Both the position numbers and the translations under genes were made by a program. A DNA stretch of 64,000 bases from Candidatus Nomurabacteria bacterium RIFCSPHIGHO2_02_40_30 (GTDB taxonomy: Bacteria > Patescibacteriota > Minisyncoccia > Phycocordibacterales > UBA9973): assembly GCA_001785445.1 (NCBI GenBank), contig MFTV01000010.1:19235-83234 (forward strand). Direction: 5' to 3'. Under the pieces are notes generated by a model. It had not been told where the DNA came from, did not search any database, and saw nothing but the letters and a program-made list of their open reading frames with translations. The stretch's first letter is position 1. Each line of letters opens with the position of its first letter. Positions 831 through 61,916 of this stretch are shown here, one piece after another.

Positions 831-865
831 TTTAGAATTTTTTTATTTTATGCTAGTATGTTCAT

Positions 866-37060: not shown

Positions 37061-37899
37061 AGGCAGTCGGGGTTGATGCTCAAAACATAATTCTTGATTA
37101 AATCTTCTCCTTCTACAAATTCACCTCCTTCAAAACCCGAGATATCTTTTTCTTTTACTAAATTTTTATACTCTTCCGTAAAAGTTCGTGCAAGTGGCAG
37201 ATATGACCAGTGCCATTTTTCTTCATTGTGGCCGGTTGGCCTGTTCTCGCCTTTTAAATTATAAGTCTGACAAAATCCGAAATCTTTGGCATTTTTTACC
37301 AGCCAGTCATAAACTTTTCCTCCTGTTTCTCCTTCGAAATACTTTGGATTGGCATTATTTATGTCTATATCCGTACCCCAGTGGTGGCGAGAGGCGCTGG
37401 GCACGGCGCTATACTCCAATATTTTTTTAAATCTTTCTCGTCCATCCGATATACTTTTCGATAAATCTTCTCCGTCCACTATGGTGTAACCGGTCCACTT
37501 TTTATTCCACAAATCTTTTTGGTAGTCGAAATTTCTGGCAGCTGAAGCTATTTTTAGCTCTACTCCATCAGCTTCTGCAGCTTCCCTCATTTTCAGAAAT
37601 GCGTTCAGAGTTTCTTTTCTCAAATACATTTTGTAGCCACCAATATTGTATTTTTCTGGCACCGGAGCGAAATCTTTTCTCTCGGCTGGGTCAAATTTGC
37701 CTAATAAATAAACTTTTACTTTGGCTTCTTTGAGTGCCTGTTCGGCTTTCAAGATTCTCTGTTCGATTTCTTCGTTTTCCTTTTTCTGTCGCAAGTCCAT
37801 AAAATCTGAAGTTAGGCGGGGGGTCAGCACAATAAATATCATAAAGAAAGTTACAAACGCGTATATGAAATTTGGAGCATGTTTTTCGATGGGATTCAC
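37057..37899 (-). CDS. M15-family peptidase (VanY-like D-Ala-D-Ala carboxypeptidase)
   Basis: N-terminal TM helix. ...AARNFDYQKDLW...SRHHWGTDIDI... is a VanY/M15B-type zinc-binding arrangement (H..G.A.D). Confidence 0.6.
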   Translation of the reverse strand: MNPIEKHAPNFIYAFVTFFMIFIVLTPRLTSDFMDLRQKKENEEIEQRILKAEQALKEAKVKVYLLGKFDPAERKDFAPVPEKYNIGGYKMYLRKETLNAFLKMREAAEADGVELKIASAARNFDYQKDLWNKKWTGYTIVDGEDLSKSISDGRERFKKILEYSAVPSASRHHWGTDIDINNANPKYFEGETGGKVYDWLVKNAKDFGFCQTYNLKGENRPTGHNEEKWHWSYLPLARTFTEEYKNLVKEKDISGFEGGEFVEGEDLIKNYVLSINPDCL

Positions 37900-38007
37900 T
37901 TGAAAACATTACCATATAAAGCTATATTTAGGCAATGGAGGCTCAAACAAAAACCTGTCACCCCGAACGAAAGCAAAGCTTCGTACGGGGCAGGAAATTG
38001 TAAAAAT

Positions 38008-39726
38008 ATGGAAAAGAAATCACAAAAGGTGGTGTGTCAGAATTGTAGGGCTAATTTCGTCATCGAACCGAATGATTTCGGTTTTTATGAAAAAATAAAA
38101 GTTCCACCACCGACCTTTTGTCCAGAATGCCGAAGACAGCGCAGATGGGCTTGGAGGAACAATATGTCTCTTTACTCTAGGAAATGTAAACTATGCGACG
38201 AATCTGTAATTTCTATTTATTCTCCGGATTCTAGTATTATTATTTACTGCAATAAATGCTGGTGGAGCGATAAGTGGGACCCAAAAAGCTACGGAAAAGA
38301 GTATGATTTCTCAAAACCATTTTTTACGCAGTTCAAGGAGCTAATGCAGAAAGTGCCTCATATGTCAGTGGTCAATGATGATGGTATTGCGAGCGTAAAC
38401 TGTGAGTACACCCACGATTGGTGGTTTTCCAAAGACTGCTATATGTGCTTCTCCGGCTGGAATGTGCAGAGCGTTATGTATAGTTTTTTTATGTTGCAGG
38501 GACGGGACATGATGGACTGCAATATTATTCGTTCCAAAAGTGAAAATCTATATGAATGCGTGCGCGGCAAAAATTCGTATCAATTGAAATATTCCCAACT
38601 ATGCTTGGCTTGCATCGATTCCCAATTTTTATATGATTGCGCCAACTGCTCGAATTGTTTTATGTGCGCCAACCTAAGGAACAAAAAATATCATTTTAAG
38701 AATAAAGAGTATTCCAAAGAGGAGTATGAAAAGATTTTAGCAAGTTACCGGCTCGATACATTTTCTGGTGTAGAGAGAGCGCAAAAAGAATACGATGAGT
38801 TTATTTTGCAGTATCCCAGAAGGTATGTGTTTATAACCCACAGCTTGAATTGCAATGGTGACCATATTTCTTTTTCTAAAAATTTAAAAAATTGTTTCGT
38901 GGCTAAAAATTGTGAAAACTGCAGGTATTCTGAATTTATCGGTGATGCCAATAACCCGAACAAAGACTGCTACGATATCACCATGTCCGGCGGGGTGTCA
39001 GAAAGCTATGAAGGGGTAGTCATAGATCACTCACAGCTCAATCTTTTCTCTGTATTCTCCGTTAAGAGCCAAGACTTGAAGTACACACAACATTGCCACA
39101 ACTGCAAGCACTGCTTCGGCTGTGTCGGTTTGCGGAATGCAAACTACTGCATTTTTAACAAACAATATACGAAAGAAGAATATGAAAAGCTTATGCCGAA
39201 AATTATAGGACACATGAATAAAATGCCCTATGTTGACCACATAGGAAATTCCTATGGATATGGGGAATTTTACCCCATAGAGATGTCACCCTTCGGCTAT
39301 AATGAAACATACGCTCCAGAGCTTCAGATGTTTACAAGGGAGGAAGCAGAAAATAACGGCTACAACTGGCGGGAGAATGTACAAAGAACTAAAGGCAAGG
39401 AAACTATTTATCCGGAGGACATTCCGAATTCTGTTGATGATGTGGCAGACAATATACTCGACGAAGTTTTGTGCTGCATTGTCTGTGAAAGAAATTATAA
39501 AATTGTTCCAAAGGAGCTTATTTTTTATAGAAAGTTAAAAATTCCGATTCCACGCAGATGTTTCTACTGCCGTTACCAAATGCGCCTACTCAAAACAAAC
39601 TCTTTGAAGCTCTGGCATAGAAAGTGCATGAAAGAAGGCTGTAAAAATGAATTTGAGACCTCATATGCACCGGAGCGGCCGGAAATTGTTTATTGTGAAA
39701 AATGTTATCAGAGTGAGGTATATTAA
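38008..39726 (+). CDS. Cysteine-rich multi-zinc-ribbon protein, paralog 5 of 5
   Basis: Start set at MEKKSQKVVCQNCRANFVIEPNDFGFYEKIKVPPPTFCPECRRQRR (ATG 38008); the longer 37879 start would overlap the divergent gene. Has the WWSDKWDPKSYGKEYDFSKPFF motif and C-terminus CKNEFETSYAPERPEIVYCEKCYQSEVY. The stop lies 15 nt before mraY. Confidence 0.85.
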   Translation: MEKKSQKVVCQNCRANFVIEPNDFGFYEKIKVPPPTFCPECRRQRRWAWRNNMSLYSRKCKLCDESVISIYSPDSSIIIYCNKCWWSDKWDPKSYGKEYDFSKPFFTQFKELMQKVPHMSVVNDDGIASVNCEYTHDWWFSKDCYMCFSGWNVQSVMYSFFMLQGRDMMDCNIIRSKSENLYECVRGKNSYQLKYSQLCLACIDSQFLYDCANCSNCFMCANLRNKKYHFKNKEYSKEEYEKILASYRLDTFSGVERAQKEYDEFILQYPRRYVFITHSLNCNGDHISFSKNLKNCFVAKNCENCRYSEFIGDANNPNKDCYDITMSGGVSESYEGVVIDHSQLNLFSVFSVKSQDLKYTQHCHNCKHCFGCVGLRNANYCIFNKQYTKEEYEKLMPKIIGHMNKMPYVDHIGNSYGYGEFYPIEMSPFGYNETYAPELQMFTREEAENNGYNWRENVQRTKGKETIYPEDIPNSVDDVADNILDEVLCCIVCERNYKIVPKELIFYRKLKIPIPRRCFYCRYQMRLLKTNSLKLWHRKCMKEGCKNEFETSYAPERPEIVYCEKCYQSEVY

Positions 39727-39741
39727 TGATATAGTGTATAT

Positions 39742-40800
39742 ATGTATCTAGATTTAGTTAAAATTTTTGTACCGACTACATTTGCCTTTTTTCTGGGTAT
39801 TTTTATTACGCCTTTGGCTACCCATTTTTTCTACAAATATAAAATGTGGAAGAAAAAAGCAAGGAGTGAAGATATAACATCCGCTGATTTCAAATTAATC
39901 CATCAACAGAAAGAAGAAACTGAAATTTCAACCCCATGCGTGGGCGGTATTGTCATCTGGGTTTCTGCACTCTTCACTGTTTTTGTATTTTTTCTGTTGT
40001 CAGTTATTTTTCCGAATGATTTGTTTTCAAAATTAAATTTTTTCAGTCGTTCGCAAACTTTTATCCCTGTGGGCATATTTATATTGGGAGCCATATTGGG
40101 ACTGGTGGACGACGTTTTGGAAATTAGAGGCAAAGTGGATATAACCAGAAATTCAGCTTGGTATACCAGAATAAAATTATTTATCATAACAATACTGGGC
40201 TTACTCGCAGGCTTTTGGTTCTTTTTCAAACTAGATATGCATTCTGTTCATATTCCTTTTAACGGCAATGTGGAGCTTGGAATTTTATTTATACTGTTTG
40301 TCGTTATTGTGATGCTCTCTACTTTCTCCGGCGGAGTAATAGACGGGCTAGACGGACTCTCCGGCGGAGTTTTGGCATCTATTTTTGGAGCTTACTCTGT
40401 TATCGCTTTCGTCAATAATCAAATAGATTTGGCGACTTTCTCCGGAGTAGTGACAGGCGCAATTTTGGCATTTCTTTGGTTCAATATTCCTCCGGCGCGT
40501 TTCTATATGGGGGAGACCGGCATGATGCCACTTACTATTACTCTCGCCACTATAGCGTTTTTGACGGATACAGTTTTGATTTTACCGATAATAGCCTTTC
40601 CGCTGGTTATTACTTCAGCTTCTTCCAGCCTGCAGCTTCTTGCCAAAAAGTTTTTTGGCAAGAAAGTTTTTCGAGTGGCGCCACTGCATCACCACTTTGA
40701 AGCTATTGGCTGGCCGTCTTACAAAGTTACTATGCGTTTTTGGGTTCTGGCGGTCGTGTCTGCTATTATTGGAATAATTTTAGCGGTCATTAGCAGATAG
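39742..40800 (+). CDS. mraY: Phospho-N-acetylmuramoyl-pentapeptide transferase
   Basis: 10-TM protein with the MraY signature VIDGLDGLSGG and conserved HHHFE near the C-terminus. Confidence 0.85.
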   Translation: MYLDLVKIFVPTTFAFFLGIFITPLATHFFYKYKMWKKKARSEDITSADFKLIHQQKEETEISTPCVGGIVIWVSALFTVFVFFLLSVIFPNDLFSKLNFFSRSQTFIPVGIFILGAILGLVDDVLEIRGKVDITRNSAWYTRIKLFIITILGLLAGFWFFFKLDMHSVHIPFNGNVELGILFILFVVIVMLSTFSGGVIDGLDGLSGGVLASIFGAYSVIAFVNNQIDLATFSGVVTGAILAFLWFNIPPARFYMGETGMMPLTITLATIAFLTDTVLILPIIAFPLVITSASSSLQLLAKKFFGKKVFRVAPLHHHFEAIGWPSYKVTMRFWVLAVVSAIIGIILAVISR

Positions 40801-40838
40801 AGCTTTAGACTCTTAGATAGAGTCTAAAGCTCTATCTG
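40794..40838. repeat. 45-nt perfect palindrome (copy A) at the mraY/ftsW junction
   Basis: cagatagagctttagactct-tagat-agagtctaaagctctatctg has 20-bp arms and a 5-nt loop. It overlaps the mraY stop. A second copy lies at 50029-50075. Confidence 0.7.
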
Positions 40839-40845
40839 CAAAAGT

Positions 40846-41943
40846 ATGAAAACAAAGAAAGTAGACAAATTTTTTCTCGGTATCGTACTTATCTTGATTT
40901 TTTTCGGGCTGGCTATTTTTGTTTCCGCATCTTTGGGCATCTTGGCAAAAAATGAAAAGATTTTTTATTCCGTGCTTTTCAGCCAGCTTGTCTTAGGGCT
41001 TGGGATGGGGTTCGTCGGCATGTACCTTTGTTTTAAAATTGACTACAAGTTTTGGCGTAAATACGCCTTTTATATTTTTTTAGCTTCGACACTGCTCACC
41101 GCGGCTGTTTTTATTCCCGAGCTAGGGTGGAGCCACGGCGGAGCTCAAAGGTGGATACAGTTTGGAGGATTTTCTTTTCAACCGGTAGAAATTTTAAAGT
41201 TTGGTTTTGTGATTTATTTTGCTGCCTGGCTGTCCTGGGCAAAAAACAAAGTGCAGGATTTCAAATTCGGCATATTGCCATTTTTTATAATGATTTCTAT
41301 AATAGCTCTGATTTTAATAAATCAACCCGACACCAAAAGCTTCATTTTAATAGCCACAACAGGCATATCAATGCTTTTTATTTCTGGTGTGTCGATGAAA
41401 AAGATTTTTGGAGCAGGAATTTGTATAGTGTTAGTTTTGATGGCGCTATTGTTATATAAACCTTATTTGCAAGAAAGATTTAAAACTTTTTTAGACCCCT
41501 CGAGTGATCCTAGAGGTTCTTCCTACCAAATCCAACAGTCGTTAATTGCCTTGGGCTCTGGGGGCGCCATAGGCCGTGGATTTGGCCAAAGCGTTCAAAA
41601 ATTTAGCTACTTACCTGAACCGCAGGGAGACTCCATCTTTGCTGTTTTAGGTGAAGAATTAGGTTTTGTGGGAGCAGGCGCAACCATATTTCTTTATCTG
41701 CTTTTTGCTCTGCGCGGATTTCGCATCGCAAATCGCGCACCGGACCCTTTTGGTGGACTTTTAGTCTCGGGGATTGTTATACTGATTACGGTGCAGTCAT
41801 TTATGCACATTGCTTCCATTACCGGAGTCTTCCCGCTTACCGGCGTGCCGCTTCCTTTTATGAGCCATGGCGGCACATCCCTCATGATCTATATGGCAGC
41901 TATGGGTATTGTATTAAACATATCAAAATTTAACAAAAATTAA
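40846..41943 (+). CDS. ftsW: SEDS-family peptidoglycan glycosyltransferase FtsW/RodA
   Basis: 10 TM helices. Conserved SEDS loop ...SDPRGSSYQIQQSLIALGSGGAIGRGFGQS...LPEPQGDSIFAVLGEELGFVG. Confidence 0.85.
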   Translation: MKTKKVDKFFLGIVLILIFFGLAIFVSASLGILAKNEKIFYSVLFSQLVLGLGMGFVGMYLCFKIDYKFWRKYAFYIFLASTLLTAAVFIPELGWSHGGAQRWIQFGGFSFQPVEILKFGFVIYFAAWLSWAKNKVQDFKFGILPFFIMISIIALILINQPDTKSFILIATTGISMLFISGVSMKKIFGAGICIVLVLMALLLYKPYLQERFKTFLDPSSDPRGSSYQIQQSLIALGSGGAIGRGFGQSVQKFSYLPEPQGDSIFAVLGEELGFVGAGATIFLYLLFALRGFRIANRAPDPFGGLLVSGIVILITVQSFMHIASITGVFPLTGVPLPFMSHGGTSLMIYMAAMGIVLNISKFNKN

Positions 41944-41944
41944 C

Positions 41945-43075
41945 ATGAAAATAGTTTTTACAGGCGGAGGAACAGGCGGACACTTTTATCCCATCATCGC
42001 TGTTGTTCAAAAAGTAAACCAAATCATCGACCATGAGAATATAATAGGAGCCAAGCTCTATTATATTTCCAACAGTCCCTATGACAAAGAGATGCTATTT
42101 GAAAACGGACTTTTATACGAAGAAGTAACTTCTGGGAAAATGCGAACCTATTTTTCCCTTAAAAACTTTTCTGATGTGTTTAAAATATTTTTCGGCACAA
42201 TAAATGCAATTTATAAATTATTTTCAATTTACCCTGATGTTGTTTTCGGCAAAGGGGGCTACGCGTCCTTCCCGACAATTTTTGCCGCGAGGTGTCTTCG
42301 CATTCCTGTGGTGATTCACGAATCAGACTCGGCGCCAGGGCGGGTAAATAAATGGGCTGGGCACTTCGCTAAAAAAATAGCCATCTCTTTCCAAGAAGCG
42401 AGCGACTTTTTCCCTAAGAATAGTGTGGCTTGGACTGGACAGCCGATAAGAGCTGAAGTAGAACATCCTGCGCCCAAGGAAGAAGCCTTCGAGTATTTTA
42501 AATTGGAGTCGAAGTTGCCGGTTATTTTAATTTTAGGAGGCTCACAGGGCGCGGAACTTATAAATAACACCATTTTAGATGCAGTTCCAAGACTGGTAAA
42601 AAGTTATCAAGTTATCCACCAAACTGGAGTTAATAATTTTAAAATGGTTGAGGCTCGAGGGAGGGTAGTATTAACCGACAATGAATACAAGCTAAGATAT
42701 CTATCATTTCCTTTTTTAAACAACTTGCAACTGAAAATGGCGGCAGGGGCGGCAACTATTGTTATTTCCCGAGCGGGTTCGGCTCTTTTTGAAATAGCCT
42801 CTTGGGGGTTGCCTTCAATCTTAATACCGTTTACACAATCTAATGCCGACCATGCCAAGAAAAATGCTTTCAACTATGCTCGCGCTGGCGCCTGCAGTGT
42901 CATCGAAGAGGCGAATATGACCGCTAATATTTTAAGTTCAGAAATTGAGAGAATTGTAGGAGATAAGGAAGATTATGCTCGAATGGCAGAAGCGGCAAAA
43001 GTCTTCAATAAACCCGATGCGGCGACGAAAATCGCCCGCGCGCTCGTGGACATAGCTTTAAGCCACGAGAAATAA
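41945..43075 (+). CDS. murG: UDP-GlcNAc:lipid I N-acetylglucosaminyltransferase MurG
   Basis: MKIVFTGGGTGGHFYPIIAV, the MurG N-terminal G-loop, on a GT-B fold. Placement after ftsW is the usual order. Confidence 0.85.
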   Translation: MKIVFTGGGTGGHFYPIIAVVQKVNQIIDHENIIGAKLYYISNSPYDKEMLFENGLLYEEVTSGKMRTYFSLKNFSDVFKIFFGTINAIYKLFSIYPDVVFGKGGYASFPTIFAARCLRIPVVIHESDSAPGRVNKWAGHFAKKIAISFQEASDFFPKNSVAWTGQPIRAEVEHPAPKEEAFEYFKLESKLPVILILGGSQGAELINNTILDAVPRLVKSYQVIHQTGVNNFKMVEARGRVVLTDNEYKLRYLSFPFLNNLQLKMAAGAATIVISRAGSALFEIASWGLPSILIPFTQSNADHAKKNAFNYARAGACSVIEEANMTANILSSEIERIVGDKEDYARMAEAAKVFNKPDAATKIARALVDIALSHEK

Positions 43076-43091
43076 ATGTTAAACTGTTTAA

Positions 43092-44417
43092 ATGGATAAA
43101 AAAGTTGTAACCAGATTTGCACCCAGTCCTACGGGGAAGTTTCATGTAGGCGGTGTTAGGTCGGCGCTTTATAATTACCTTTATGCTAGAAAAAATGGGG
43201 GGAAGTTCATTTTGCGTTGCGAAGATACGGACAAAGAAAGATCCAAAAAAGAATATGAAGATTACTTTCTTGATGTATTTAAATGGCTAGGTTTGAACTA
43301 CGACGAATACTACCGCCAATCTGAACGCACCGCTATTTATAAAAAATACTTGAGTAAACTCATAGAAGAAGGTAAGGCGTATATTTCAAAAGAAGAAATA
43401 AAGGAAGAGGGGCAAAGAAGTGAAGTTATTCGTTTTAAAAATCCCAATATAAGAATTAATTTTCACGACGAAGTATTAGGCGACCTCTCTTTTGACACTA
43501 CGGATTCCAAAGACTTTATTATAGCGCGCGATCTTGAAACTCCGCTTTTTAATTTTACCAATGTTGTGGATGATTTTGAAATGGGAGTCACTCACGTGAT
43601 TCGCGGGCAAGAACATGTGTCCAACACTCCGCGGCAAATTTTAATTGGCGAAGCCATAGGTGCTCCAAGGCTCATTTATGCCCACTGCTCTATTATCTTA
43701 AACGAAGAAAGAGCCAAACTGTCCAAGCGCGACCCTTTGGTGCTTCCAGCTCTTGGCTACAAAGAAGAGGGGTATTTACCGGAGGGCATACTTAACTTCA
43801 TGTCTCTTTTGGGCTGGAACCCCGGTACTCCGGAAGAAATTTTCACCCTGAAAGAATTAGTGGAAGCTTTTTCTATAGAAAGAATGCAAAAGCAGCCAGC
43901 TATATTTAATGTAGATAAGTTACATTGGGTAAATAAAGAACATATCAAGAAGTTGTCTGGAGAGGAAATAGAAAAAAATATTTTAGCATGGCTGAAACCT
44001 GCTTACGCAGGTTTCAGGGAGAGTATCCTTATAAAACTAATTCCGGTGATTCTGGAGAGAATTTCAAAATGGAGCGATGTGAAAAACATGGCCGAAAAGG
44101 GGGAGCTCGACTTCTTCTTTAAACAGCCGGAATATGATAAGAGTAAATTAATTTATAAAAATGCTGCACTCGAAAAAATAGTTTCTAATCTAGGCAAAGC
44201 TATTGTAGTTTTGAAAAATTTAGATGAAAAAGATTTTAATAAAGAAAATATAAAAACAAAATTAATGGATACAGCAGATAGTCTAGATAGTCGAGGTGAA
44301 TTACTACATCCGGTGCGTTTTGCCCTTTCCGGACTAGACAAGTCTCCAGACCCATTTATTATTGCCGAGATTTTAGGTAAAAATGAAACTATTTCAAGAT
44401 TACAGAAAGCTATTTAG
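43092..44417 (+). CDS. gltX: Glutamyl-tRNA synthetase (short form)
   Basis: Class I motifs RFAPSPTGKFHVGGVRSALYNY (HIGH-type HVGG) and KLSKRD (KMSKS-type). Confidence 0.8.
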   Translation: MDKKVVTRFAPSPTGKFHVGGVRSALYNYLYARKNGGKFILRCEDTDKERSKKEYEDYFLDVFKWLGLNYDEYYRQSERTAIYKKYLSKLIEEGKAYISKEEIKEEGQRSEVIRFKNPNIRINFHDEVLGDLSFDTTDSKDFIIARDLETPLFNFTNVVDDFEMGVTHVIRGQEHVSNTPRQILIGEAIGAPRLIYAHCSIILNEERAKLSKRDPLVLPALGYKEEGYLPEGILNFMSLLGWNPGTPEEIFTLKELVEAFSIERMQKQPAIFNVDKLHWVNKEHIKKLSGEEIEKNILAWLKPAYAGFRESILIKLIPVILERISKWSDVKNMAEKGELDFFFKQPEYDKSKLIYKNAALEKIVSNLGKAIVVLKNLDEKDFNKENIKTKLMDTADSLDSRGELLHPVRFALSGLDKSPDPFIIAEILGKNETISRLQKAI

Positions 44418-45663
44418 TATAATTATTTTTACAATACTGATAATACCTTTGGCTTTTTCCCATGCGCAAACAGCCGGAGATTTAAAAGATAAAATAAATC
44501 AAAAAGATGCTGACATTCAGCAACTGGAGAAAGAAATAGCTGCTTATCAGCTAGAGCTTGATACTCTAGGAGAACAAAAAAGCTCCCTCAATAGCGCCAT
44601 CAAACAGCTTGATTTAACAAAGAAAAAATTAAATACCGATATTGCCGTAACGGAGAAAAAGATTGATAAAACAAATCTAAAAATAGAAAGTTTAAGCTCC
44701 GACATAAGTACGAAACAGGACACAATAACAAACAACGTAGAATCTATCAAGTTGGAAATTCGAAAAACCAACGAATTTGAGATGAACAGCATCCTTTCAA
44801 CTCTGCTTTCTGAAAATGACTTTACGGTCATCTGGAACGACATAGACAATATAGCCACGGTGCGGGAAAAAATAAGGCAAGACATAGTCAAGCTAAAAGA
44901 AATAAAGGGGGAACTGGAAGATACCAGGAAAGAAACCATTTCTGCTAAAAATGAACTTACTAAGCTTAAGTCCAGACTTTCTGACCAGAAGAAAATAGTG
45001 GTGCAAAATACAAATGAAAAAAACAAACTGCTAAAGCAGACGAAAAACAATGAAGCTAATTACCAAAAACTGCTTAAAGAGCGAATGGCCGAGAGGGATG
45101 CCTTTGAGAAAGAGTTGCGCGACTACGAAGCCCAGTTGGAATTTATTCTAGATCCGTCCAAACTGCCTTCGGGCGGAGTATTAAGCTGGCCGCTTGAAAG
45201 AATATTTGTGACCCAGCTATTTGGCAAGACAGTAGACTCCAAACGCCTGTATGCATCGGGCACCCACAACGGCGTGGACTTTCGCGCCTCGGTGGGGACG
45301 CCGGTCATGGCTATGGCTGACGGCACAGTTTTGGGGGTAGGAAATACTGACACAACTTGCTATGGAGCATCTTTCGGCAAATTTGTTTTTATAAAATACA
45401 ACAACGGCCTTGCGAGCACCTTTGGGCATTTGTCACTTATAAAGTCATATGAAGGGCAAAGAGTTAGAAGGGGCGAAGTGGTAGGCTATACCGGCAACAC
45501 TGGGCATACCACCGGCCCTCATTTGCACATATCTCTATACGCTTCGGAAGCTGTCAAAATGGCTTCCAAGCCCTCTAAAGCCTGTGGCGGGCGTATTTAC
45601 AGGCTACCCGTTGCGCCGATTAATGCTTACCTTGATGCGTTGTATTATTTGCCTCGGTTGTAG
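44383..45663 (+). CDS. M23 peptidase with N-terminal signal peptide and long coiled coil (EnvC-like)
   Basis: Signal/TM segment, roughly 230 aa of heptad-rich sequence, then a LytM domain: HNGVDFRASVGTPVMAMADGTV...GHLSLIK...GNTGHTTGPHLHISLY. Confidence 0.8.
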   Translation: MKLFQDYRKLFSIIIFTILIIPLAFSHAQTAGDLKDKINQKDADIQQLEKEIAAYQLELDTLGEQKSSLNSAIKQLDLTKKKLNTDIAVTEKKIDKTNLKIESLSSDISTKQDTITNNVESIKLEIRKTNEFEMNSILSTLLSENDFTVIWNDIDNIATVREKIRQDIVKLKEIKGELEDTRKETISAKNELTKLKSRLSDQKKIVVQNTNEKNKLLKQTKNNEANYQKLLKERMAERDAFEKELRDYEAQLEFILDPSKLPSGGVLSWPLERIFVTQLFGKTVDSKRLYASGTHNGVDFRASVGTPVMAMADGTVLGVGNTDTTCYGASFGKFVFIKYNNGLASTFGHLSLIKSYEGQRVRRGEVVGYTGNTGHTTGPHLHISLYASEAVKMASKPSKACGGRIYRLPVAPINAYLDALYYLPRL

Positions 45664-45678
45664 TATAATTTATAGGTT

Positions 45679-45867
45679 ATGAAAAATAAAAAGAGTGGTT
45701 TTATTCAAATAATTATTCTTATCGTCGTTGCTCTTCTAGTGATGCGTTATTTTGGTCTCACTATTTCCGGAATCTTGGATTATTTTGGTCTTACGTGGAC
45801 TGAAATTATTAGTTGGCTCAAAAAAGCCTTGGATTGGCTCAAAGAGTTATTTCAAAGTGTAAAGTAA
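45679..45867 (+). CDS. Small membrane protein (62 aa)
   Basis: Single TM helix (IQIIILIVVALLVMRYF) plus an amphipathic C-terminus. Followed by a terminator-like hairpin and T-run at about 45885-45930. Confidence 0.35.
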   Translation: MKNKKSGFIQIIILIVVALLVMRYFGLTISGILDYFGLTWTEIISWLKKALDWLKELFQSVK

Positions 45868-45944
45868 ATAAAAAATAAAAATACCCCGAAGACCGAAAGG
45901 TAATCGAGGTTCTTTTGGTTTCATTTTTTCTAAAGAACTTACCC

Positions 45945-46380
45945 AGACGAGGGTGACGTGAGATCTGTCCGCTCCTTGCTTAAGATCCAATCACGTCACC
46001 CTTTGCGCTTGGTCAGTGCGTACTGCGTTAGATACCACTGACCTCATTCGGTGTGCGACTTCGAGAGGCACACCGAATGGAACTTTACTCGTCGCCTTGT
46101 AACGACCGAGGCAGGGCAAATGGGTCGCCCTCCTCTGCTACTTCTTCCGTCGTCTTGGCGAGTGGTTCAGGCTTTGTTGCCCGAGTTAAGAAAACAAAAA
46201 TTTGGGCTATCATTGCTAGCGCTAGGCCGGCAAATTCAAGCCACATCAACCTTTCCCATGTCATACGTATCCTCCTATCCATGTTTATACCACAAAGTTA
46301 GAAATAAACAAGGAAAACTAAAGGAGCCTGCCCCAACCGAGTTTCGTTCTGGTTCGGGGTTATCCACAGCTTAGGCTTGG
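45945..46380. other. GC-rich, highly structured region of about 430 nt (candidate structured RNA gene, or foreign DNA carrying a small ORF)
   Basis: Consecutive perfect hairpins: gggtgacgtga/tcacgtcaccc (11 bp), ggtcagtg/cactgacc (8 bp), cattcggtgtgc/gcacaccgaatg (12 bp). Local GC is far above background. No conserved tmRNA or RNase P motif was recognised. A minus-strand 59-65-aa ORF (46085-46282) with an AGGAGG Shine-Dalgarno sequence and one TM helix also lies here. Confidence 0.4.
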
Positions 46381-46393
46381 TGTTATTTTCTGA

Positions 46394-46440
46394 TGTGGAA
46401 TATAATGTATATTAAGTGGGAAAAAGTGGGAAATGTGTGG
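46394..46440 (+). promoter_or_regulatory. mraZ promoter with MraZ-type GTGGG direct-repeat operator
   Basis: -35 TTGGTG (about 46378), 17-nt spacer, -10 TATAAT (46401-46406). GTGGG / GTGGG / GTGTGG repeats at 46416, 46426 and 46435 have 10-bp periodicity, with an extra TGTGG at 46394. This lies 25-70 nt upstream of the mraZ ATG. Confidence 0.55.
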
Positions 46441-46462
46441 ATAATGATTTTTAAATAAAAAT

Positions 46463-46900
46463 ATGCTCATCGGTGAATACATACATACAATAGACGAGAA
46501 AAACAGAGTTTCCTTGCCGGTAAAGTTCAGGAAGGAAATGGGCAGAAAAATTATTATCACACCGGGGCTGGGGCAGTGTTTATTTATTTTTACAACTGCC
46601 GAGTGGGCAAAAGTAAGTAAAAAACTTTCCGACTCGGAGGCCGACCTTTCTTTCCTGAAAGCAGACCAGAGAAGTTTCAACAGATATATGTTTGGACGAG
46701 CGGCGGAAGTGGAAATTGATGCAATCGGCAGAATGCTGATACCGGAATTCCTGCAAGAGGGTATCAGACTTCGAGACAAAGCGGCAATTATCGGAGTCAA
46801 AGATAGGGTGGAGATTTGGAACGAAAAGGCATGGAGAGAGCAGAAAGAAAAAATCGGGAAAGAAGCGGAGCAATTGGCAGAGAAGTTAGGAAATGAATGA
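46463..46900 (+). CDS. mraZ: Transcriptional regulator MraZ
   Basis: Tandem MraZ/SpoVT-AbrB-like halves: MLIGEYIHTIDEKNRVSLPVKFRKEM... and ...EVEIDAIGRMLIPEFL. Confidence 0.85.
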   Translation: MLIGEYIHTIDEKNRVSLPVKFRKEMGRKIIITPGLGQCLFIFTTAEWAKVSKKLSDSEADLSFLKADQRSFNRYMFGRAAEVEIDAIGRMLIPEFLQEGIRLRDKAAIIGVKDRVEIWNEKAWREQKEKIGKEAEQLAEKLGNE

Positions 46901-47867
46901 TATGGAAAGCGTGCATAAGACAGTTCTTTTACAAGAGACAATAGATGGTTTGAATTTGAAAAATAATTCTGTAGTCGTGGATGCCACATTCGGTGGAGGC
47001 GGGCATAGCTTAGAAATTTTATTAAGAAACCCAAATACAAAAGTTATCGCCATTGATCAAGATAGTACCGTTTGGGAAAGGGTGAAAGAAAAATTTAAAG
47101 GATTAGAGAACAGAATTTCTTTTACCAATAAAAATTTCCGAGACATAGATAAACTGGAGAATATTGATCCCGTTAGAAGCCGCCCTCTCGAACACGAGAG
47201 TGCTACGATCACCTTGGGGCGACCTGCTTCTAACGGGATTGATGGAATTATTTTTGATTTAGGTTTAAGTTCCGACCAGCTAGAGAATTCCGGACGAGGA
47301 TTTTCTTTCATGAAAGATGAGCCCTTGCTCATGCAAATGAAAAGTTCAGCGAAAGAAAATCCTTCTCCAGAAGATGTTACAGCACTTGATGTGGTAAATA
47401 CATGGAGCGAGAAAAGTTTAGCCGATATTATTTATGGCTATGGAGAGGAAAAATTTAGCCGGAGAATAGCCAAGGGCATAGTGGAGACACGACAAAAGAA
47501 AAAGATTGAAACCACGACCGAACTAGTCGAAATCATCAGTCAGGCAGTTCCGGCAGCATATAGGAGAGCCAGATTACACTTTGCCACCAGAACCTTTCAG
47601 GCCATAAGAATAGCAGTAAATGACGAGCTGGGTAGCTTGGAACAAGGATTGAGTAAAGGATTTGACGCATTAAAAATAGGTGGACGAATAGCAACAATTT
47701 CTTTCCACAGCTTGGAAGACCGAATAGTAAAAAGATTTTATAAAAAAAAGGTTACGGAGGGAAAAGGAAAATTAGTAAATAAAAAGATAATTTTAGCAGA
47801 TAATAGTGAAATTAAAAATAATCCAAGAGCCAGAAGCGCAAAATTACGAATAATAGAAAAAATATAA
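46893..47867 (+). CDS. rsmH: 16S rRNA (cytosine1402-N4)-methyltransferase RsmH (MraW)
   Basis: HKTVLLQETIDGL...VVDATFGGGGHS (SAM-binding) ...FDLGLSSDQLE...ISFHSLEDRIVK is the RsmH signature. Confidence 0.9.
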   Translation: MNDMESVHKTVLLQETIDGLNLKNNSVVVDATFGGGGHSLEILLRNPNTKVIAIDQDSTVWERVKEKFKGLENRISFTNKNFRDIDKLENIDPVRSRPLEHESATITLGRPASNGIDGIIFDLGLSSDQLENSGRGFSFMKDEPLLMQMKSSAKENPSPEDVTALDVVNTWSEKSLADIIYGYGEEKFSRRIAKGIVETRQKKKIETTTELVEIISQAVPAAYRRARLHFATRTFQAIRIAVNDELGSLEQGLSKGFDALKIGGRIATISFHSLEDRIVKRFYKKKVTEGKGKLVNKKIILADNSEIKNNPRARSAKLRIIEKI

Positions 47868-47942
47868 AAAATATGAGTCCCGTTAGAAGTTCACTGGCGG
47901 GAGATAAAAAGAAAAATTATAAATTTTAAAACTTCTAACGGG

Positions 47943-48323
47943 ATGAGTGCGATAGCTTCAAAAATAAATATGCAAATCAGGAGTATCAATGTTATAAACA
48001 ACAATGTTGAAAAACTCTTTTTGCGTATCTTACTTTGGTCTTTCGCGACATTTCTTTTGTGGTATATTTTCCTTTTAGGCAGTATGGTTTTCAATATTGT
48101 AGAACGCCGAACCCTTGAAAAAGAAGCGTTGGTTTTATCTAATCAAGTTCATGAATTGGAGCTTAACTACCTATCAATGTCTAACAAGATTGATCTTACT
48201 TTTGCATATTCTGTGGGTTTTAAGGAGACGAATATCAAGTTTGCAACTCGTAAATTTTTAGGATTTAACCCTAGCAACGGGTCATCTGGTAATATTGATA
48301 GTATTTCTAAAAATGAAATTTAG
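47943..48323 (+). CDS. Putative cell-division protein FtsL-like (single TM plus coiled coil)
   Basis: 126 aa with one TM helix and a short heptad region. Sits between rsmH and ftsI, where ftsL normally lies. No sequence signature. Confidence 0.4.
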   Translation: MSAIASKINMQIRSINVINNNVEKLFLRILLWSFATFLLWYIFLLGSMVFNIVERRTLEKEALVLSNQVHELELNYLSMSNKIDLTFAYSVGFKETNIKFATRKFLGFNPSNGSSGNIDSISKNEI

Positions 48324-50028
48324 TTTTCTCTTTAGGTCCAGAGTCATTCTTTTTTGCTTGATTTTATTTTCTTTGGTTTTGATGTCCAAGCTGTTTTTGG
48401 TGCAAATAATGCATGGTGGAGCGTATGGAGAGGAAGCGAACCGTCAGTATGCCACACCGTCATCAAACATTTATGAACGCGGAACTATTTATTTTATGCG
48501 CAAAGACGGAGAACCAGTATCTGCGGCTACCCAGACGTCTGGATTTAAGCTAGCTATTGAGCCTACTAAAATTATCGACTTTGAAAATACTTACAAAAAG
48601 TTGTCAGACATAGTAGCTATAAGTCGTGATGATTTTCTAGCTAAAGCGCTGAAGAAAAACGACCCCTACGAAGAAGTCGCAAGCCATCTTTCCAAAGAGG
48701 AAGCCGACGCTGTATCGGCGTTAAAGCTTTCCGGAGTAAATATTTTTAAAGAAAAGTGGCGTTTTTATCCCGGAGTTTCTTTAGCTTCGCATACTCTTGG
48801 CTTTGTGGGGTATAAAGGCGACGAACTTGGCGGACGCTATGGCCTAGAGAGGCAGTATAACACAGAGCTGGCGCGCAATAACGGCAACCCATATATAAAT
48901 TTTTTCGCCGAAGTTTTTTCCAATATTAATAAAACTTTATTTCAAAACGGAGTGCGGGAAGGGGACGTAATAACAACCATCGAGCCTTCGGTTCAAGATT
49001 TTTTGGAAAAGAAATTAAGAGACGTCAAGGAAAAATATCAAGTTGACTCTATTGGAGGAATAATAATGAATCCAATGGACGGCTCTATTTACGCTCTTGG
49101 TGTCAAGCCTGACTTTGACCCGAATAATTTTTCCAAAGTTAAGTCAACCAATACATTTTCTAACCCGCTAGTGGAAAGTGTATTAGAATTCGGGTCTGTG
49201 GTCAAACCATTGGTTATGGCTGCGGCACTTGATGCCAAGGTTCTAACTCCGGAGACAACTTATACCGACAACGGGTCGGTAATAGTTGAAAATAAAGAAA
49301 TATTTAACTTTGATAAAAAGGCCCGAGGTCCGAATACCAGCATGCAGGAAGTTCTCAATCAGTCCTTAAATACCGGCATGGTTTTCGTAGAAAAGAAATT
49401 AGGTAAAGAGCTTTTGCGCGAATATCTTTTGTCCTACGGTATTAAAGATAAAACAGGAATTGACTTACCTAATGAGACTTCTGGACTTGTTTCCAATATA
49501 CTAAATAGCCCTCGTGAAATCGAGTACGCCAATGCGGCTTTCGGCCAGGGCATAGCCCTTACGCCGGTAGAATTAATTCGAGCATTGGCCACCCTAGCAA
49601 ATGGCGGGAATCTAGTTACTCCGCATGTTGTGAAAGAAATAAAATACAATGACGGCACTCGCAAAGAAAACAAGTATCCCACAATGCCTGCCAAGATTAC
49701 GAAAGCTACGAGTGAGGAGATAACCAGAATGCTGGTGACTGTAATGGACAAAGCTATAAAAAGCGGGCTAGGAAAATTAGAACATTTCAGTGTAGCTGTA
49801 AAGACGGGCACAGCTCAAGTTGCCGATAATACCACCGGAGGCTATTATACAGATAGGCACACGCACTCATTTGTTGGTTATTTTCCAGCATATGACCCGA
49901 AATTTATAGTATTTCTTTATGCAGTGAATCCTCGTGGGGTAGAATACGCTGCCACCACTTGGACGGATGCTTTTTTAGACATTACTAAATTTTTATTAAA
50001 TTATTACGAAATTCCACCGGACAGATAA
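48295..50028 (+). CDS. ftsI: Penicillin-binding protein 2/3-type transpeptidase (FtsI-like)
   Basis: N-terminal TM helix, PBP dimerisation domain, and transpeptidase motifs SVVKP (SxxK), SLN (SxN) and KTGTA (KTG). Confidence 0.85.
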   Translation: MIVFLKMKFSFLFRSRVILFCLILFSLVLMSKLFLVQIMHGGAYGEEANRQYATPSSNIYERGTIYFMRKDGEPVSAATQTSGFKLAIEPTKIIDFENTYKKLSDIVAISRDDFLAKALKKNDPYEEVASHLSKEEADAVSALKLSGVNIFKEKWRFYPGVSLASHTLGFVGYKGDELGGRYGLERQYNTELARNNGNPYINFFAEVFSNINKTLFQNGVREGDVITTIEPSVQDFLEKKLRDVKEKYQVDSIGGIIMNPMDGSIYALGVKPDFDPNNFSKVKSTNTFSNPLVESVLEFGSVVKPLVMAAALDAKVLTPETTYTDNGSVIVENKEIFNFDKKARGPNTSMQEVLNQSLNTGMVFVEKKLGKELLREYLLSYGIKDKTGIDLPNETSGLVSNILNSPREIEYANAAFGQGIALTPVELIRALATLANGGNLVTPHVVKEIKYNDGTRKENKYPTMPAKITKATSEEITRMLVTVMDKAIKSGLGKLEHFSVAVKTGTAQVADNTTGGYYTDRHTHSFVGYFPAYDPKFIVFLYAVNPRGVEYAATTWTDAFLDITKFLLNYYEIPPDR

Positions 50029-50075
50029 CCAGATAGAGCCTTAGACTCTATCTAAGAGTCTAAGGCTCTATCTGG
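50029..50075. repeat. 47-nt perfect palindrome (copy B) at the ftsI/murF junction
   Basis: ccagatagagccttagactct-atcta-agagtctaaggctctatctgg has 21-bp arms. Compared with copy A the arm substitution t>c is compensated by a>g, and the loop is reverse-complemented. Confidence 0.7.
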
Positions 50076-50082
50076 AAACACC

Positions 50083-51399
50083 ATGAAAACAATTTTGAAA
50101 AAAATAATAACTTACATTTTGCGGCTAGAGTCGGTTTTGGTACTTTTCAAATATAAACCAAAAATCATTGCTATTACCGGCTCGGTCGGCAAGACTTCCA
50201 CCAAAGATGCGGTGTATGCGGTCTTATCGGGAATTACATATGTTCGTAAAAGTGAAAAAAGCTACAACAGCGAAATAGGTTTGCCCCTTACTATCTTAGG
50301 TGTTCCAAATGGGTGGAATAATCCATTAATCTGGCTCAAAAATATATTTGCTGGTTTATGGCTTTTTATATATCCTCACAAATACCCCAAAATGCTTGTG
50401 CTGGAAGTAGGCGTCGGCAAAGAGGGGGATATGAAGAAAACCGCATCATGGCTTAAAACCGATGTAGTCATTATTACGGCCGTAGGTGAGACTCCGGTGC
50501 ATATTGAATTTTTTAATTCACGCAAAAACTTGATAGAGGAAAAAAGTCAACTCATAAAAACTTTAAAAAAGGACGGTCTTCTTGTATTGAATGCTGATGA
50601 CGAAGATGTGCTGCAAATGGGAACAAACAGCAAGCACCTTGTTAAAACTTATGGATTTAAAGAAGGTGCTAATATTTTGGGTTCCAGCGATAGTATTTTT
50701 TACGATGAACATGGAGTACCCAAGGGAGTAATTTTCAGAGTTGATGAAGAGGGCAGGAGTCTGCCCGTAACCATAGAAGGAGTTTTTGGAAGGAATCACG
50801 TTTATGCAACTTTGGGTGCTCTTGCTCTCTCTTCTGGTTTAAAATTTAATATGCTTGATGCTGTAAATGCGCTCAAAAATTACGATATTCCGCCCGGACG
50901 AATGCGGCTTTTAGAAGGCATCAATGATTCTCTTATAATTGACGATAGCTACAATTCTTCTCCGTTTGCTTGCGAGTCGGCGCTCCGAACCTTAGGCGAA
51001 GTAAAAAATTTGGGAAGAAAAATAGCTGTCTTGGGAGACATGCTGGAACTTGGCAAGCACACGCAGGAAGCTCATAAGAATATTGGTCGTATTGCCAAAG
51101 AATACACAGATGTTCTTATTGTTGTAGGTCCTAGAGCTCAAGATATAAAAGACGGAGCGTTAGAGGTTTACCCGTCTTCCGGCGGGCGAGGGATTAATCC
51201 TGCTAACATTTTTGAATTTTTAGATTCGTATCATGCAGCAGAATTTATAAAAACTTTTGTGCAAAAAGGAGACCTAGTACTAGTGAAAGGTTCCCAAGGT
51301 ATGCGCATGGAGCGGATAGTGGAAGCTATACTTTTAGACCAAATAAATAAAGAAAAACTACTCGTCCGCCAAGACAAAGAGTGGCTGGAGAAAAAGTAG
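50083..51399 (+). CDS. murF: UDP-MurNAc-pentapeptide synthetase MurF (Mur ligase)
   Basis: Mur ligase P-loop ITGSVGKTSTKD and the central/C-terminal Mur ligase domains. Its position after ftsI, with murE absent, favours MurF, but MurE cannot be excluded by eye. Confidence 0.7.
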   Translation: MKTILKKIITYILRLESVLVLFKYKPKIIAITGSVGKTSTKDAVYAVLSGITYVRKSEKSYNSEIGLPLTILGVPNGWNNPLIWLKNIFAGLWLFIYPHKYPKMLVLEVGVGKEGDMKKTASWLKTDVVIITAVGETPVHIEFFNSRKNLIEEKSQLIKTLKKDGLLVLNADDEDVLQMGTNSKHLVKTYGFKEGANILGSSDSIFYDEHGVPKGVIFRVDEEGRSLPVTIEGVFGRNHVYATLGALALSSGLKFNMLDAVNALKNYDIPPGRMRLLEGINDSLIIDDSYNSSPFACESALRTLGEVKNLGRKIAVLGDMLELGKHTQEAHKNIGRIAKEYTDVLIVVGPRAQDIKDGALEVYPSSGGRGINPANIFEFLDSYHAAEFIKTFVQKGDLVLVKGSQGMRMERIVEAILLDQINKEKLLVRQDKEWLEKK

Positions 51400-61881: not shown

Positions 61882-61900
61882 AACGGCAGGGTCTAATTTA

Positions 61901-61909
61901 TGTTATAAT
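61901..61909 (+). promoter_or_regulatory. Extended -10 element TGTTATAAT upstream of the transglycosylase-like gene
   Basis: Same TTATGTTATAATA string as upstream of 17598. Lies 8 nt before ATG 61917. Confidence 0.35.
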
Positions 61910-61916
61910 AATAACT

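What the first reader, a model, noticed from the sequence alone, without database searches (positions are those of the whole stretch)
40794..50075. Two near-identical long palindromes with compensatory substitutions at gene junctions inside the division/cell-wall cluster
- A 45-nt palindrome at 40794-40838 (mraY stop to ftsW) and a 47-nt palindrome at 50029-50075 (ftsI stop to murF) have 20-21-bp perfect arms.
- They differ by one arm position that is co-varied on both arms (t/a versus c/g).
- The central 5-nt loop is tagat in one and atcta, its reverse complement, in the other.
- Neither is followed by a U-tract, so they are not canonical intrinsic terminators.
- Both sit exactly at stop codons within presumably co-transcribed genes.
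- The co-variation argues for a selected hairpin: an RNase processing or stabiliser site, an attenuator, or a protein-binding palindrome.
- The loop inversion suggests the two copies are in opposite orientation, like a small invertible or mobile palindromic unit.
Basis: seen in the sequence. Interest (0 to 1): 0.6.

Follow-up and report, generated by a model that had tools for sequence, protein, structure and literature searches.

The report
Mobile REP palindromes between division genes
The two long palindromes are copies of a small mobile hairpin repeat (REP/REPIN type, the kind spread by a RAYT tyrosine transposase) that is scattered through Nomurabacteria-like ultra-small bacteria and has landed at the ends of mraY and ftsI; this is a known kind of element, though I found no earlier description of it in this bacterial group.

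Summary
There are two 47-nt perfect hairpins, at 40793-40839 and 50029-50075, each with 21-bp arms. They differ by compensated changes and have reverse-complementary 5-nt centres. One overlaps the mraY stop codon and the other starts one base after the ftsI stop.

They are not specific to this cluster. Each arm is most of a 27-nt hairpin unit, CCAGATAGAG-CYTTAGA-CTCTATCTGG. Exact arms turn up in dozens of Patescibacteria assemblies in three forms:
- single units
- back-to-back doublets like those here
- inverted pairs flanking a ~220-aa Y1 (HUH) transposase gene that JGI annotates as RayT

The transposase's best solved-structure match, though weak, is E. coli TnpA-REP (4ER8).

Relatives with 74-80% identical MraY have no insert at mraY-ftsW. 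About half of 32 relatives have an empty ftsI-murF junction. The others carry this repeat, a variant of it, or unrelated palindromes.

The "co-variation" reflects two repeat subtypes (C and T). Both arms of every doublet carry the same subtype.

Best reading: these are REPIN-like non-autonomous elements. Any effect of the hairpin on the mRNA is plausible but untested. No cognate transposase lies in the window.

Verdict: a new member of a known kind, of modest interest.

The parts
40793..40839 (.). REP doublet 1 (T subtype). 21-bp arms, centre TAGAT (40814-40818). Lies between mraY and ftsW.
40815..40837 (-). The complete 23-nt core of the hairpin unit inside doublet 1 (AGATAGAG-TCTAAAG-CTCTATCT, i.e. 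the unit in reverse orientation). The left arm is the truncated inverted partner.
40798..40800 (+). mraY stop codon TAG, lying inside the left arm. The C-terminus ...ISR* matches relatives that lack the element.
50029..50075 (.). REP doublet 2 (C subtype). 21-bp arms, centre ATCTA (50050-50054). Lies between ftsI and the MurF-type ligase gene.
50031..50053 (+). The complete 23-nt core of the hairpin unit inside doublet 2 (AGATAGAG-CCTTAGA-CTCTATCT, forward orientation). The right arm is the truncated inverted partner.
50017..50028 (+). Native ftsI 3' end CCGGACAGATAA (PDR*). It resembles the repeat's own 5' end CCAGATAGAG and is the likely target sequence.

Best explanation
Both palindromes are doublets of a repetitive-extragenic-palindrome (REP) family that is widespread in Nomurabacteria/Paceibacteria-type Patescibacteria.

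**The unit.** A 27-nt hairpin, CCAGATAGAG-CYTTAGA-CTCTATCTGG.

**The doublet.** One full unit joined to a truncated inverted copy. Together they fold as one 21-bp hairpin, which makes it REPIN-like.

**Shown:**
- Identical units flank genes for a Y1 (HUH) tyrosine transposase of the RAYT type.
- The units are dispersed as singles and doublets.
- Relatives have empty orthologous sites.

**Inferred from the known biochemistry of E. coli TnpA-REP and IS200/IS605 transposases:**
- When the DNA is single-stranded, for example at a replication fork, the hairpin is bound by the cognate RAYT. The RAYT cuts and rejoins single strands and so creates new copies.
- These two copies landed at the 3' ends of mraY and ftsI. 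The native sequence there (...AGCAGRTAA and ...CCNGAYAGATAA) resembles the repeat's own CAGATAG end.
- In the polycistronic mRNA each copy would form a very stable hairpin at the stop codon. It could act as a 3'-exonuclease barrier or loosen translational coupling. That would be a side effect of the insertion, not the reason the sequence exists.
For: **1. The unit is widespread.** A scan of 185,579 species genomes with the 19-nt arm gave 63 loci.
- Nearly all hits with a completed hairpin are labelled Patescibacteria, Nomurabacteria, Paceibacterota or the like.
- The 8 hits from other phyla are lone arms, not flanked by the bases that would complete the unit. This is about the number chance predicts.
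- Viral contigs gave 3 incomplete hits.

**2. Three forms exist.**
- 28 non-redundant doublets.
- 42 full single units.
- Units flanking or lying inside transposase genes.

**3. Link to a transposase.**
- Inverted units bracket a 220-aa ORF in L012, L016, L031, L034 and L043.
- The ORF hits Pfam Y1_Tnp at 29.5 bits, above the 23-bit cut-off.
- H79, H81 (the HUH motif) and Y139 are invariant.
- JGI names homologues 'REP element-mobilizing transposase RayT'.
- The best PDB fold match is 4ER8_A, TnpA-REP bound to a REP hairpin (probability 0.99, E = 3.3e-3).
- More distant homologues each carry their own cognate flanking hairpins.

**4. Presence/absence at orthologous sites.**
- mraY-ftsW is empty (1-24 nt between the genes) in L069, L070 and L071, and MraY keeps the same ...IS(R)* end.
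- ftsI-murF has a gap of 20 nt or less in 15 of 32 relatives.
- The same family sits at that junction in L045/L097, joined differently to the stop codon, so it is an independent insertion.
- A CAGATAG-headed variant occupies it in L080.

**5. Hairpin symmetry is maintained.** The two variable base pairs outside the conserved core agree in 26/28 and 24/28 doublets, with 3-4 pair types. The next two positions are at chance level.

**6. Published REP behaviour matches.** Elsewhere REPs donate TAG stop codons, form inverted dimers and sit downstream of ORFs (PMC3733652).
Against: - No RAYT homologue lies in the 64-kb window. I could not establish whether the source genome encodes the cognate one.
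- There are only two copies in 64 kb. Exact-arm copies number about 5-15 per related assembly, far fewer than the hundreds in classical REPIN populations.
- Mobility is inferred from differences between species. All near-identical strains carry both copies, so no polymorphism within the population was seen.
- The repeat lacks the unpaired 5' GTAG or CGTC tag of the classical REP super-families.
- The NCBIfam RAYT equivalog model scores only 24 bits against a cut-off of 80.
- A sequence profile of the transposase finds no PDB chain, and the fold match is weak (TM 0.38/0.48; model pLDDT 70).
- How the compact doublet arises from the single unit is unresolved.
Confidence: 0.8

Rival explanations
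1. The hairpins are selected cis-acting RNA elements of the division/cell-wall operon, such as a 3'-end stabiliser, an RNase site or an attenuator. They would set the ratio of MraY to FtsW and of FtsI to MurF. On this view their mobile-element ancestry is incidental (exaptation).
For: - The RNA hairpins are very stable and sit exactly at stop codons.
- Both copies are fixed in all near-identical strains.
- The ftsI-murF junction carries a strong hairpin in 10 of 32 relatives, drawn from at least six unrelated sequence families. This could reflect repeated selection for a hairpin there.
Against: - mraY-ftsW is empty in all three relatives examined, and about half of the ftsI-murF junctions are empty.
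- The same sequence occurs at unrelated junctions, in both orientations, and in frame inside coding regions.
- Other junctions of the cluster also collect palindromic inserts: 4/21 at mraZ-rsmH and 2/22 at rsmH-ftsL. The pattern therefore fits permissive landing sites.
- There is no U-tract on the sense strand.
Confidence: 0.13
2. The palindromes are binding sites for a dimeric DNA-binding protein, acting as an operator or a nucleoid-organising site within the cluster.
For: - Perfect two-fold symmetry over 21 bp.
- E. coli REPs are known to bind gyrase, IHF and Pol I (background knowledge).
Against: - No regulator gene is associated with them.
- Copies occur inside coding regions and at unrelated loci.
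- The conserved partner across genomes is a single-strand-specific HUH transposase, not a double-strand DNA binder.
- The element is not conserved at these junctions.
Confidence: 0.03
3. The two inverted copies are recombination sites. The 9.2-kb segment between them would be invertible or excisable, or the sites would be integron attC-like.
For: - The two copies are in opposite orientation, judged by their centres.
- The cluster has an unusual split gene order.
Against: - All genes between and around the copies are on the + strand.
- mraY-ftsW-murG-gltX-M23 and ftsI-murF adjacencies are the same in relatives that lack the element.
- No recombinase gene lies nearby in the window.
- There are no attC-type R/L boxes.
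- All strain contigs show one arrangement.
Confidence: 0.02
4. They are unconventional, U-tract-independent transcription terminators or pause sites used by these bacteria.
For: - Strong hairpins directly after ORFs.
- Terminator rules in Patescibacteria are not established.
Against: - They lie inside tightly packed co-oriented gene runs with 7-8 nt to the next start codon.
- They are absent in relatives with the same gene order.
- Units also occur in frame inside genes, where termination would be lethal.
Confidence: 0.04

Closest known systems
REPINs (REP doublets forming hairpins) with RAYT transposases, as in Pseudomonas fluorescens SBW25 (PMC3116915, PMC3337134, PMC5581495)
   Same: - Two copies of a short palindromic repeat in inverted orientation fold into one long hairpin.
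- Copies are dispersed at gene ends.
- The cognate Y1 transposase gene is itself flanked by the repeat and is present at about one or two copies.
- Different transposase lineages have different cognate repeats.
   Different: - The doublet here is very compact, 45-47 nt against roughly 70-110 nt. The second unit is truncated, so the two overlap around a 4-6-nt centre.
- Copy numbers seen are tens rather than hundreds.
- The hosts are ~1-Mb Patescibacteria.
- Single units are about as common as doublets.
E. coli REP/BIME elements and TnpA-REP (PDB 4ER8; PMC3479197)
   Same: - A short stem-loop repeat recognised as single-stranded DNA by an HUH/Y1 enzyme.
- A REPtron layout, with the gene bracketed by inverted repeats.
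- 4ER8 is the top structural match of the modelled transposase.
   Different: - There is no unpaired 5' GTAG guide tetranucleotide. Here GATAG is base-paired within the stem.
- The stems are perfect rather than imperfect.
- The protein is about 220 aa, with a long C-terminal extension that ends inside the 3' repeat.
- Sequence similarity is too low for the NCBIfam equivalog model.
GTAG- and CGTC-tagged REP super-families (Di Nocera et al. 2013, PMC3733652) and Rickettsia palindromic elements
   Same: - The repeats supply TAG stop codons to upstream ORFs.
- They lie mostly downstream of co-directional ORFs.
- They form inverted dimers.
- They are sometimes inserted in frame inside genes.
   Different: - Neither tag is present as an unpaired end.
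- Patescibacteria were not among the phyla that paper reports (as far as the passages I read show).
IS200/IS605 insertion sequences and their miniature derivatives
   Same: - The same transposase superfamily.
- Hairpin ends.
- No target-site duplication is seen at either site.
- There is an apparent sequence-specific target.
   Different: - IS200/IS605 ends are two different hairpins in direct orientation, and the whole gene-carrying element multiplies.
- Here the flanking hairpins are usually inverted copies of one unit, and the short repeat, not the gene, is what is multi-copy.
Neisseria Correia/NEMIS and other MITEs at gene junctions
   Same: Works like these at the RNA level, if at all: a co-transcribed inverted-repeat insert forming a long hairpin between genes of one operon.
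   Different: - MITEs are 70-300 bp with terminal inverted repeats.
- They make target duplications.
- They depend on DDE transposases.

Membership tests
REP (repetitive extragenic palindrome) | Short (20-40 nt) stem-loop-forming repeat | tested here: met
   The 27-nt unit has a 10-bp stem and a 7-nt loop. DNA fold energy is -8.1 kcal/mol, z about -6. The stem half not constrained by the search pattern is present in 42 of 51 single hits.
REP (repetitive extragenic palindrome) | Many dispersed copies per genome | tested here: inconclusive
   There are 2 copies in this 64-kb window. Related assemblies hold about 5-15 exact-arm copies, for example JBBUHH01, MFUV01 and MFTJ01. The whole source genome could not be scanned.
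REP (repetitive extragenic palindrome) | Extragenic location, typically just downstream of ORFs | tested here: met
   Both window copies lie at ORF 3' ends. In 18 of 30 doublets (before removing near-duplicate sites) a long ORF has its stop inside or just before the element. Some single units are nevertheless intragenic and in frame.
REP (GTAG/CGTC super-families) | Unpaired GTAG or CGTC tetranucleotide at one end | tested here: not met
   The unit begins CCAGATAGAG, and its GATAG is paired with CTATC. It therefore does not belong to either tagged super-family as defined in PMC3733652.
REPIN | Two REPs in inverted orientation with a short spacer, forming one long hairpin | tested here: met
   Arms are 21 bp with a 5-nt centre. 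The 28 doublets elsewhere have 4-6-nt centres, with one of 11 nt. The second unit is truncated, so this is a compact variant.
REPIN | Doublets are the replicating unit (commoner and better conserved than singlets) | tested here: inconclusive
   There are 28 doublets against 42 single units in an ascertainment-biased sample. 25 of 28 doublets have no mismatch between arms.
RAYT (REP-associated tyrosine transposase) | HUH motif and catalytic tyrosine; Y1_Tnp fold | tested here: met
   Pfam PF01797 scores 29.5 bits against a 23-bit cut-off. H79, H81 and Y139 are invariant across 18 sequences down to 27% identity. The top PDB fold hit is 4ER8_A, though weak. This was tested on genes from related genomes, not from the window.
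RAYT (REP-associated tyrosine transposase) | Gene flanked by its cognate REPs, usually inverted | tested here: met
   L012, L016, L031, L034 and L043 carry this repeat. L065, L070, L081, L085, L092, L112, L121 and L125 carry other cognate hairpins. L035 is an exception, with both flanks in direct orientation.
RAYT (REP-associated tyrosine transposase) | Membership of the curated NCBIfam equivalog NF047646 | tested here: not met
   The score is 24 bits against a cut-off of 80. This is a distant clade rather than the proteobacterial equivalog.
RAYT (REP-associated tyrosine transposase) | A cognate RAYT present, at low copy, in the genome that carries these two palindromes | not testable with these tools
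   The window has no homologue. The genome scan did not return the source species, and the rest of the source assembly could not be fetched.
Intrinsic terminator | GC-rich hairpin followed by a U-tract on the transcribed strand | tested here: not met
   The sense-strand tails are AAAAGTATG and AAACACCATG. The only call is a weak antisense one.

The most novel reading that the evidence does not exclude
In these ultra-small genomes, palindromic mobile elements may have been repeatedly recruited as operon punctuation. On this reading a strong hairpin between ftsI and murF (and here also between mraY and ftsW) is selected because it uncouples expression of neighbouring cell-wall genes. That would explain why at least six unrelated hairpin families occupy the same junction in different lineages.

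A linked possibility is that the cognate repeat found in frame inside most of these RAYT genes is an autoregulatory site.
Probability: 0.12. Interest if true: 0.55.

Novelty: new member of a known kind. Interest (0 to 1): 0.3.

Why it matters
- **Avoiding a misreading.** It shows that a striking conserved-looking hairpin with compensatory changes inside an essential operon is a mobile repeat, not a dedicated regulatory RNA.
- **Extending REP/RAYT systems.** It extends REP/REPIN-RAYT systems, studied almost entirely in Proteobacteria, to Patescibacteria with ~1-Mb genomes. There, intergenic space is so scarce that the repeats overlap stop codons and even sit in frame inside genes.
- **A possible study system.** These lineages could be a compact system for studying how such repeats persist and what they cost or contribute.
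- **Practical uses.** The repeat is a likely cause of assembly breaks, and it could serve as a lineage marker in these metagenome-derived genomes.

Tried and rejected
- **Rfam.** A search of the whole window at gathering thresholds found only tRNA-Glu, so this is not a described RNA family.
- **Degenerate copies in the window.** A 3-mismatch hit at 44548 has no hairpin partner and lies in a coiled-coil coding stretch, so I treated it as chance. A relaxed stem pattern found only the two known copies plus one chance-level hit.
- **Apparent shared flank with L063.** This proved to be a hisS-def junction, not ftsI-murF, so it is not orthologous.
- **Sequence searches of the transposase against PDB chains.** The single sequence gave only chance-level hits (E ≥ 0.1) to unrelated proteins, and the 18-sequence profile gave none. 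Only the fold comparison linked it to 4ER8.
- **Viral contigs.** Three chance-like lone arms, so there is no evidence of a phage vector.
- **Cross-class spread to Saccharibacteria.** I do not claim this. L012, labelled Saccharibacteria, has flanks nearly identical to the Nomurabacteria locus L016, so the label is probably wrong.
- **Deriving the doublet from the single unit.** I tried simple fold-back copying, and cutting after a CT dinucleotide as E. coli TnpA-REP does. Neither reproduces the observed junctions cleanly, so I left this open.
- **Finding the cognate transposase of the source genome.** I used identical-protein look-ups and cluster accessions. The RAYT clusters from the same field site belong to other assemblies and carry different cognate hairpins.
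Full report
**1. The observation**

| | Copy 1 | Copy 2 |
|---|---|---|
| Span | 40793-40839 | 50029-50075 |
| Arm | GCAGATAGAGCTTTAGACTCT | CCAGATAGAGCCTTAGACTCT |
| Centre | TAGAT | ATCTA |
| RNA fold | -37.6 kcal/mol | -39.1 kcal/mol |
| DNA fold | -23.5 kcal/mol | -24.2 kcal/mol |

- Each copy has 21 perfect base pairs.
- The arms differ at two positions, and both differences are compensated on the partner arm: T-A versus C-G inside the arm, and G-C versus C-G at the outermost pair.
- As RNA, no shuffle out of 200 folds as well.
- The 20-mer occurs nowhere else in the 64 kb, and none is expected by chance.

**2. Gene context**

- Pfam assigns the surrounding ORFs as follows: MraY (39742-40800), FtsW (40846-41943), MurG, GltX, an M23 peptidase, MraZ, RsmH, a small FtsL-like ORF, FtsI (48295-50028) and a Mur ligase (50083-51399).
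- The mraY stop TAG lies inside the left arm of copy 1.
- Copy 2 starts one base after the ftsI stop.
- There is no sense-strand U-tract.
- The source is a Candidatus Nomurabacteria genome from the Rifle aquifer, found in assemblies GCA_000995805.1 and GCA_001787075.1.

**3. What the sequence is**

I scanned one genome per prokaryotic species with the 19-nt arm AGATAGAGCNTTAGACTCT. This gave 63 loci.

- Eight single, hairpin-less hits come from unrelated phyla, which is about what chance predicts.
- The rest are assemblies labelled Patescibacteria, Nomurabacteria, Paceibacterota, Taylorbacteria, Minisyncoccia or similar.

Reading these loci shows that the arm is most of a smaller hairpin unit, CCAGATAGAG-CYTTAGA-CTCTATCTGG. 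The unit occurs in three forms:

- **Singles.** The half of the stem not required by the search is present in 42 of 51 hits.
- **Doublets like those in the window.** One complete unit is joined to an inverted copy truncated after CTCT. This leaves centres of AGAT or ATCT (16 cases), or these plus one or two bases.
- **Inverted pairs 0.2-0.9 kb apart.**

The window's copies each contain one complete unit, at 40815-40837 in reverse orientation and at 50031-50053 in forward orientation. This is why their centres are reverse complements of each other.

**4. The partner gene**

- Between the separated inverted units lies a ~220-aa ORF.
- It matches Pfam Y1_Tnp above the curated threshold.
- It has at least 2,927 homologues, several of which JGI names 'REP element-mobilizing transposase RayT'.
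- The HUH histidines (H79, H81) and a tyrosine (Y139) stay invariant in an alignment reaching 27% identity.
- An AlphaFold model (pLDDT 70) has E. coli TnpA-REP bound to a REP hairpin (4ER8) as its best solved-structure match. IS608 and ISDra2 transposases follow among the meaningful hits. The scores are weak.
- The protein's last codons (…LPDRV*) are encoded by the 3' repeat itself.
- More distant homologues in related genomes are each bracketed by their own, different hairpin. This is the pattern expected for co-evolving REP-RAYT pairs.
- One of these (L070) sits between murG and gltX in a relative's copy of this same cluster.
- The window contains no homologue. The curated proteobacterial RAYT model is not reached.

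**5. Conservation at the two junctions**

All near-identical strains carry both copies.

*mraY-ftsW.* Relatives with 74-80% identical MraY have 1-24 nt between the genes, no hairpin, and the same ...IS(R)* C-terminus.

*ftsI-murF, across 32 non-redundant relatives.*
- 15 have a gap of 20 nt or less.
- One (L045/L097) has the same repeat, but fused to the stop codon differently from the window. It is therefore an independent insertion.
- One (L080) has a variant that also begins CAGATAG.
- The rest carry at least five unrelated palindromic inserts, a tandem repeat, or short spacers without a strong hairpin (L109, L111).

*Other junctions.* Other junctions of the cluster also collect such inserts in some relatives: 4/21 at mraZ-rsmH and 2/22 at rsmH-ftsL.

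*Target.* The native ends (AGC AGR TAA for mraY; CCN GAY AGA TAA for ftsI) resemble the repeat's CAGATAG end. This suggests a sequence-guided target, but it rests on only three or four events. No target duplication is visible.

**6. The 'compensatory' changes**

- The C/T position agrees between arms in 28 of 28 doublets (0 of 20,000 shuffles).
- Every other genome sampled is uniformly C or T. The window alone has one of each.
Each doublet is built from, or homogenised to, one of them.
- Independently, the two base pairs outside the conserved core vary among doublets within a genome yet stay complementary (26/28 and 24/28 agree, with 3-4 pair types). The next two positions are random.
- Hairpin symmetry is therefore truly maintained. 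The cause could be selection for recognition as a folded single strand, or the mechanism that generates doublets. I could not decide between these.

**7. Mechanism**

*Shown:*
- Family membership by sequence.
- Association with a Y1/HUH transposase.
- Dispersal.
- Empty orthologous sites.

*Inferred from the E. coli TnpA-REP and IS200/IS605 literature (PMC3479197):*
- The hairpin forms in single-stranded DNA, is bound by the cognate enzyme, and is cut and rejoined to give new copies.

*Inferred only:*
- The co-transcribed 21-bp hairpin stabilises the upstream message or weakens coupling to ftsW and murF.

Published surveys already report REPs that supply TAG stops, lie downstream of ORFs, form inverted dimers and occur in frame within genes (PMC3733652).

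**8. Comparison and novelty**

This behaves like a REPIN-RAYT system. It meets the structural definitions of REP, REPIN and RAYT, with these exceptions:
- There is no unpaired GTAG/CGTC tag.
- The doublet is unusually compact.
- Copy number is modest.
- The cognate gene was not shown in the source genome.

Full-text searches combining REP, RAYT or REPIN with Candidate Phyla Radiation or Patescibacteria found no description of such elements. I therefore rate it a new member of a known kind.

Interest is modest.

Noticed in passing
window 47167-47239 and 47878-47943: A second inverted-repeat family. It has 14-nt termini, (A)TCCCGTTAGAAG.. and ..CTTCTAACGGGA(T), with 45 and 38 nt between them.

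- One copy lies inside the rsmH ORF.
- The other fills the rsmH-ftsL spacer and ends at the start codon.
- The same terminus appears in the mraY-ftsW spacer of L071.
- It also appears as a 129-nt insert at ftsI-murF in L077/L078.
   Followed up: partly
L019 5939-5961, L026 7312-7334, L053 3797-3819, L054 747-769, L027 7481-7503, L037 4-26: Single 27-nt units lie in frame inside long ORFs.

- They read QIESKALS or, in the other orientation, DRALDSI.
- L026 and L053 are orthologous proteins from two different assemblies, with the unit at the same position.
   Followed up: partly
RAYT genes in L031, L034, L070, L081, L085, L092, L112, L121, L125 (also L022, L035, L050): Nine of eleven diverse RAYT genes contain an in-frame internal copy of their own cognate hairpin.

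- Seven match the flanking hairpin with 0-2 mismatches; the weaker two have 3 (L034) and 6 (L121).
- It sits near codon 57-61 in one clade and codon 93-96 in another.
- The internal copy changes in step with the flanking repeats.
- This could be local self-insertion or autoregulation.
- I know of no description of it.
   Followed up: partly
L043 2408-3352: A RAYT gene is truncated exactly at its internal repeat. The first ~62 codons are replaced by an unrelated 129-aa ORF, which suggests rearrangement at the internal hairpin.
   Followed up: no
ftsI-murF junction in L077-L112: This junction is a hot spot for inserts across relatives.

- At least six unrelated palindromic families occupy it, for example CCCTCTCCTT..AAGGAGAGGG, CCACAAGTCGGACATGTGG.. 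and CCCTGTTAAATAA..TTATTTAACAGGG.
- One relative has a GGATATAG tandem repeat there.
   Followed up: partly
L070 13312-14075: In a relative with 78% identical MraY, a RAYT gene sits between murG and gltX of this same cluster. It has a different cognate hairpin, GTAGACGTCCGACGTCTAC.
   Followed up: yes
window 37879-51399: The division/cell-wall cluster is split and permuted relative to the usual order. It runs mraY-ftsW-murG, then gltX and an M23 peptidase, then mraZ-rsmH-ftsL-ftsI-murF. A 615-aa ORF without any Pfam match precedes mraY.
   Followed up: no
window 739-837 versus 34136-34235: An 87% identical ~100-nt inverted repeat within the window. One copy lies inside the M1 peptidase gene.
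   Followed up: no
L068 11000-11452: A contig from the same field site has an MraY 89% identical to the window's. Its 3' end diverges, and the downstream sequence is unrelated rather than ftsW. This is either a recombinant strain or an assembly chimera close to the repeat position.
   Followed up: no
Genome-contig scan: The scan did not return the source species' own two loci, although every strain contig examined carries them. The representative genome evidently lacks this region or the exact arms. Copy number in the source genome is therefore unknown.
   Followed up: no
window 61894-61956: An AT-rich 28-nt imperfect inverted repeat (79% complementary, 7-nt centre) in the spacer between two ORFs.
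   Followed up: no
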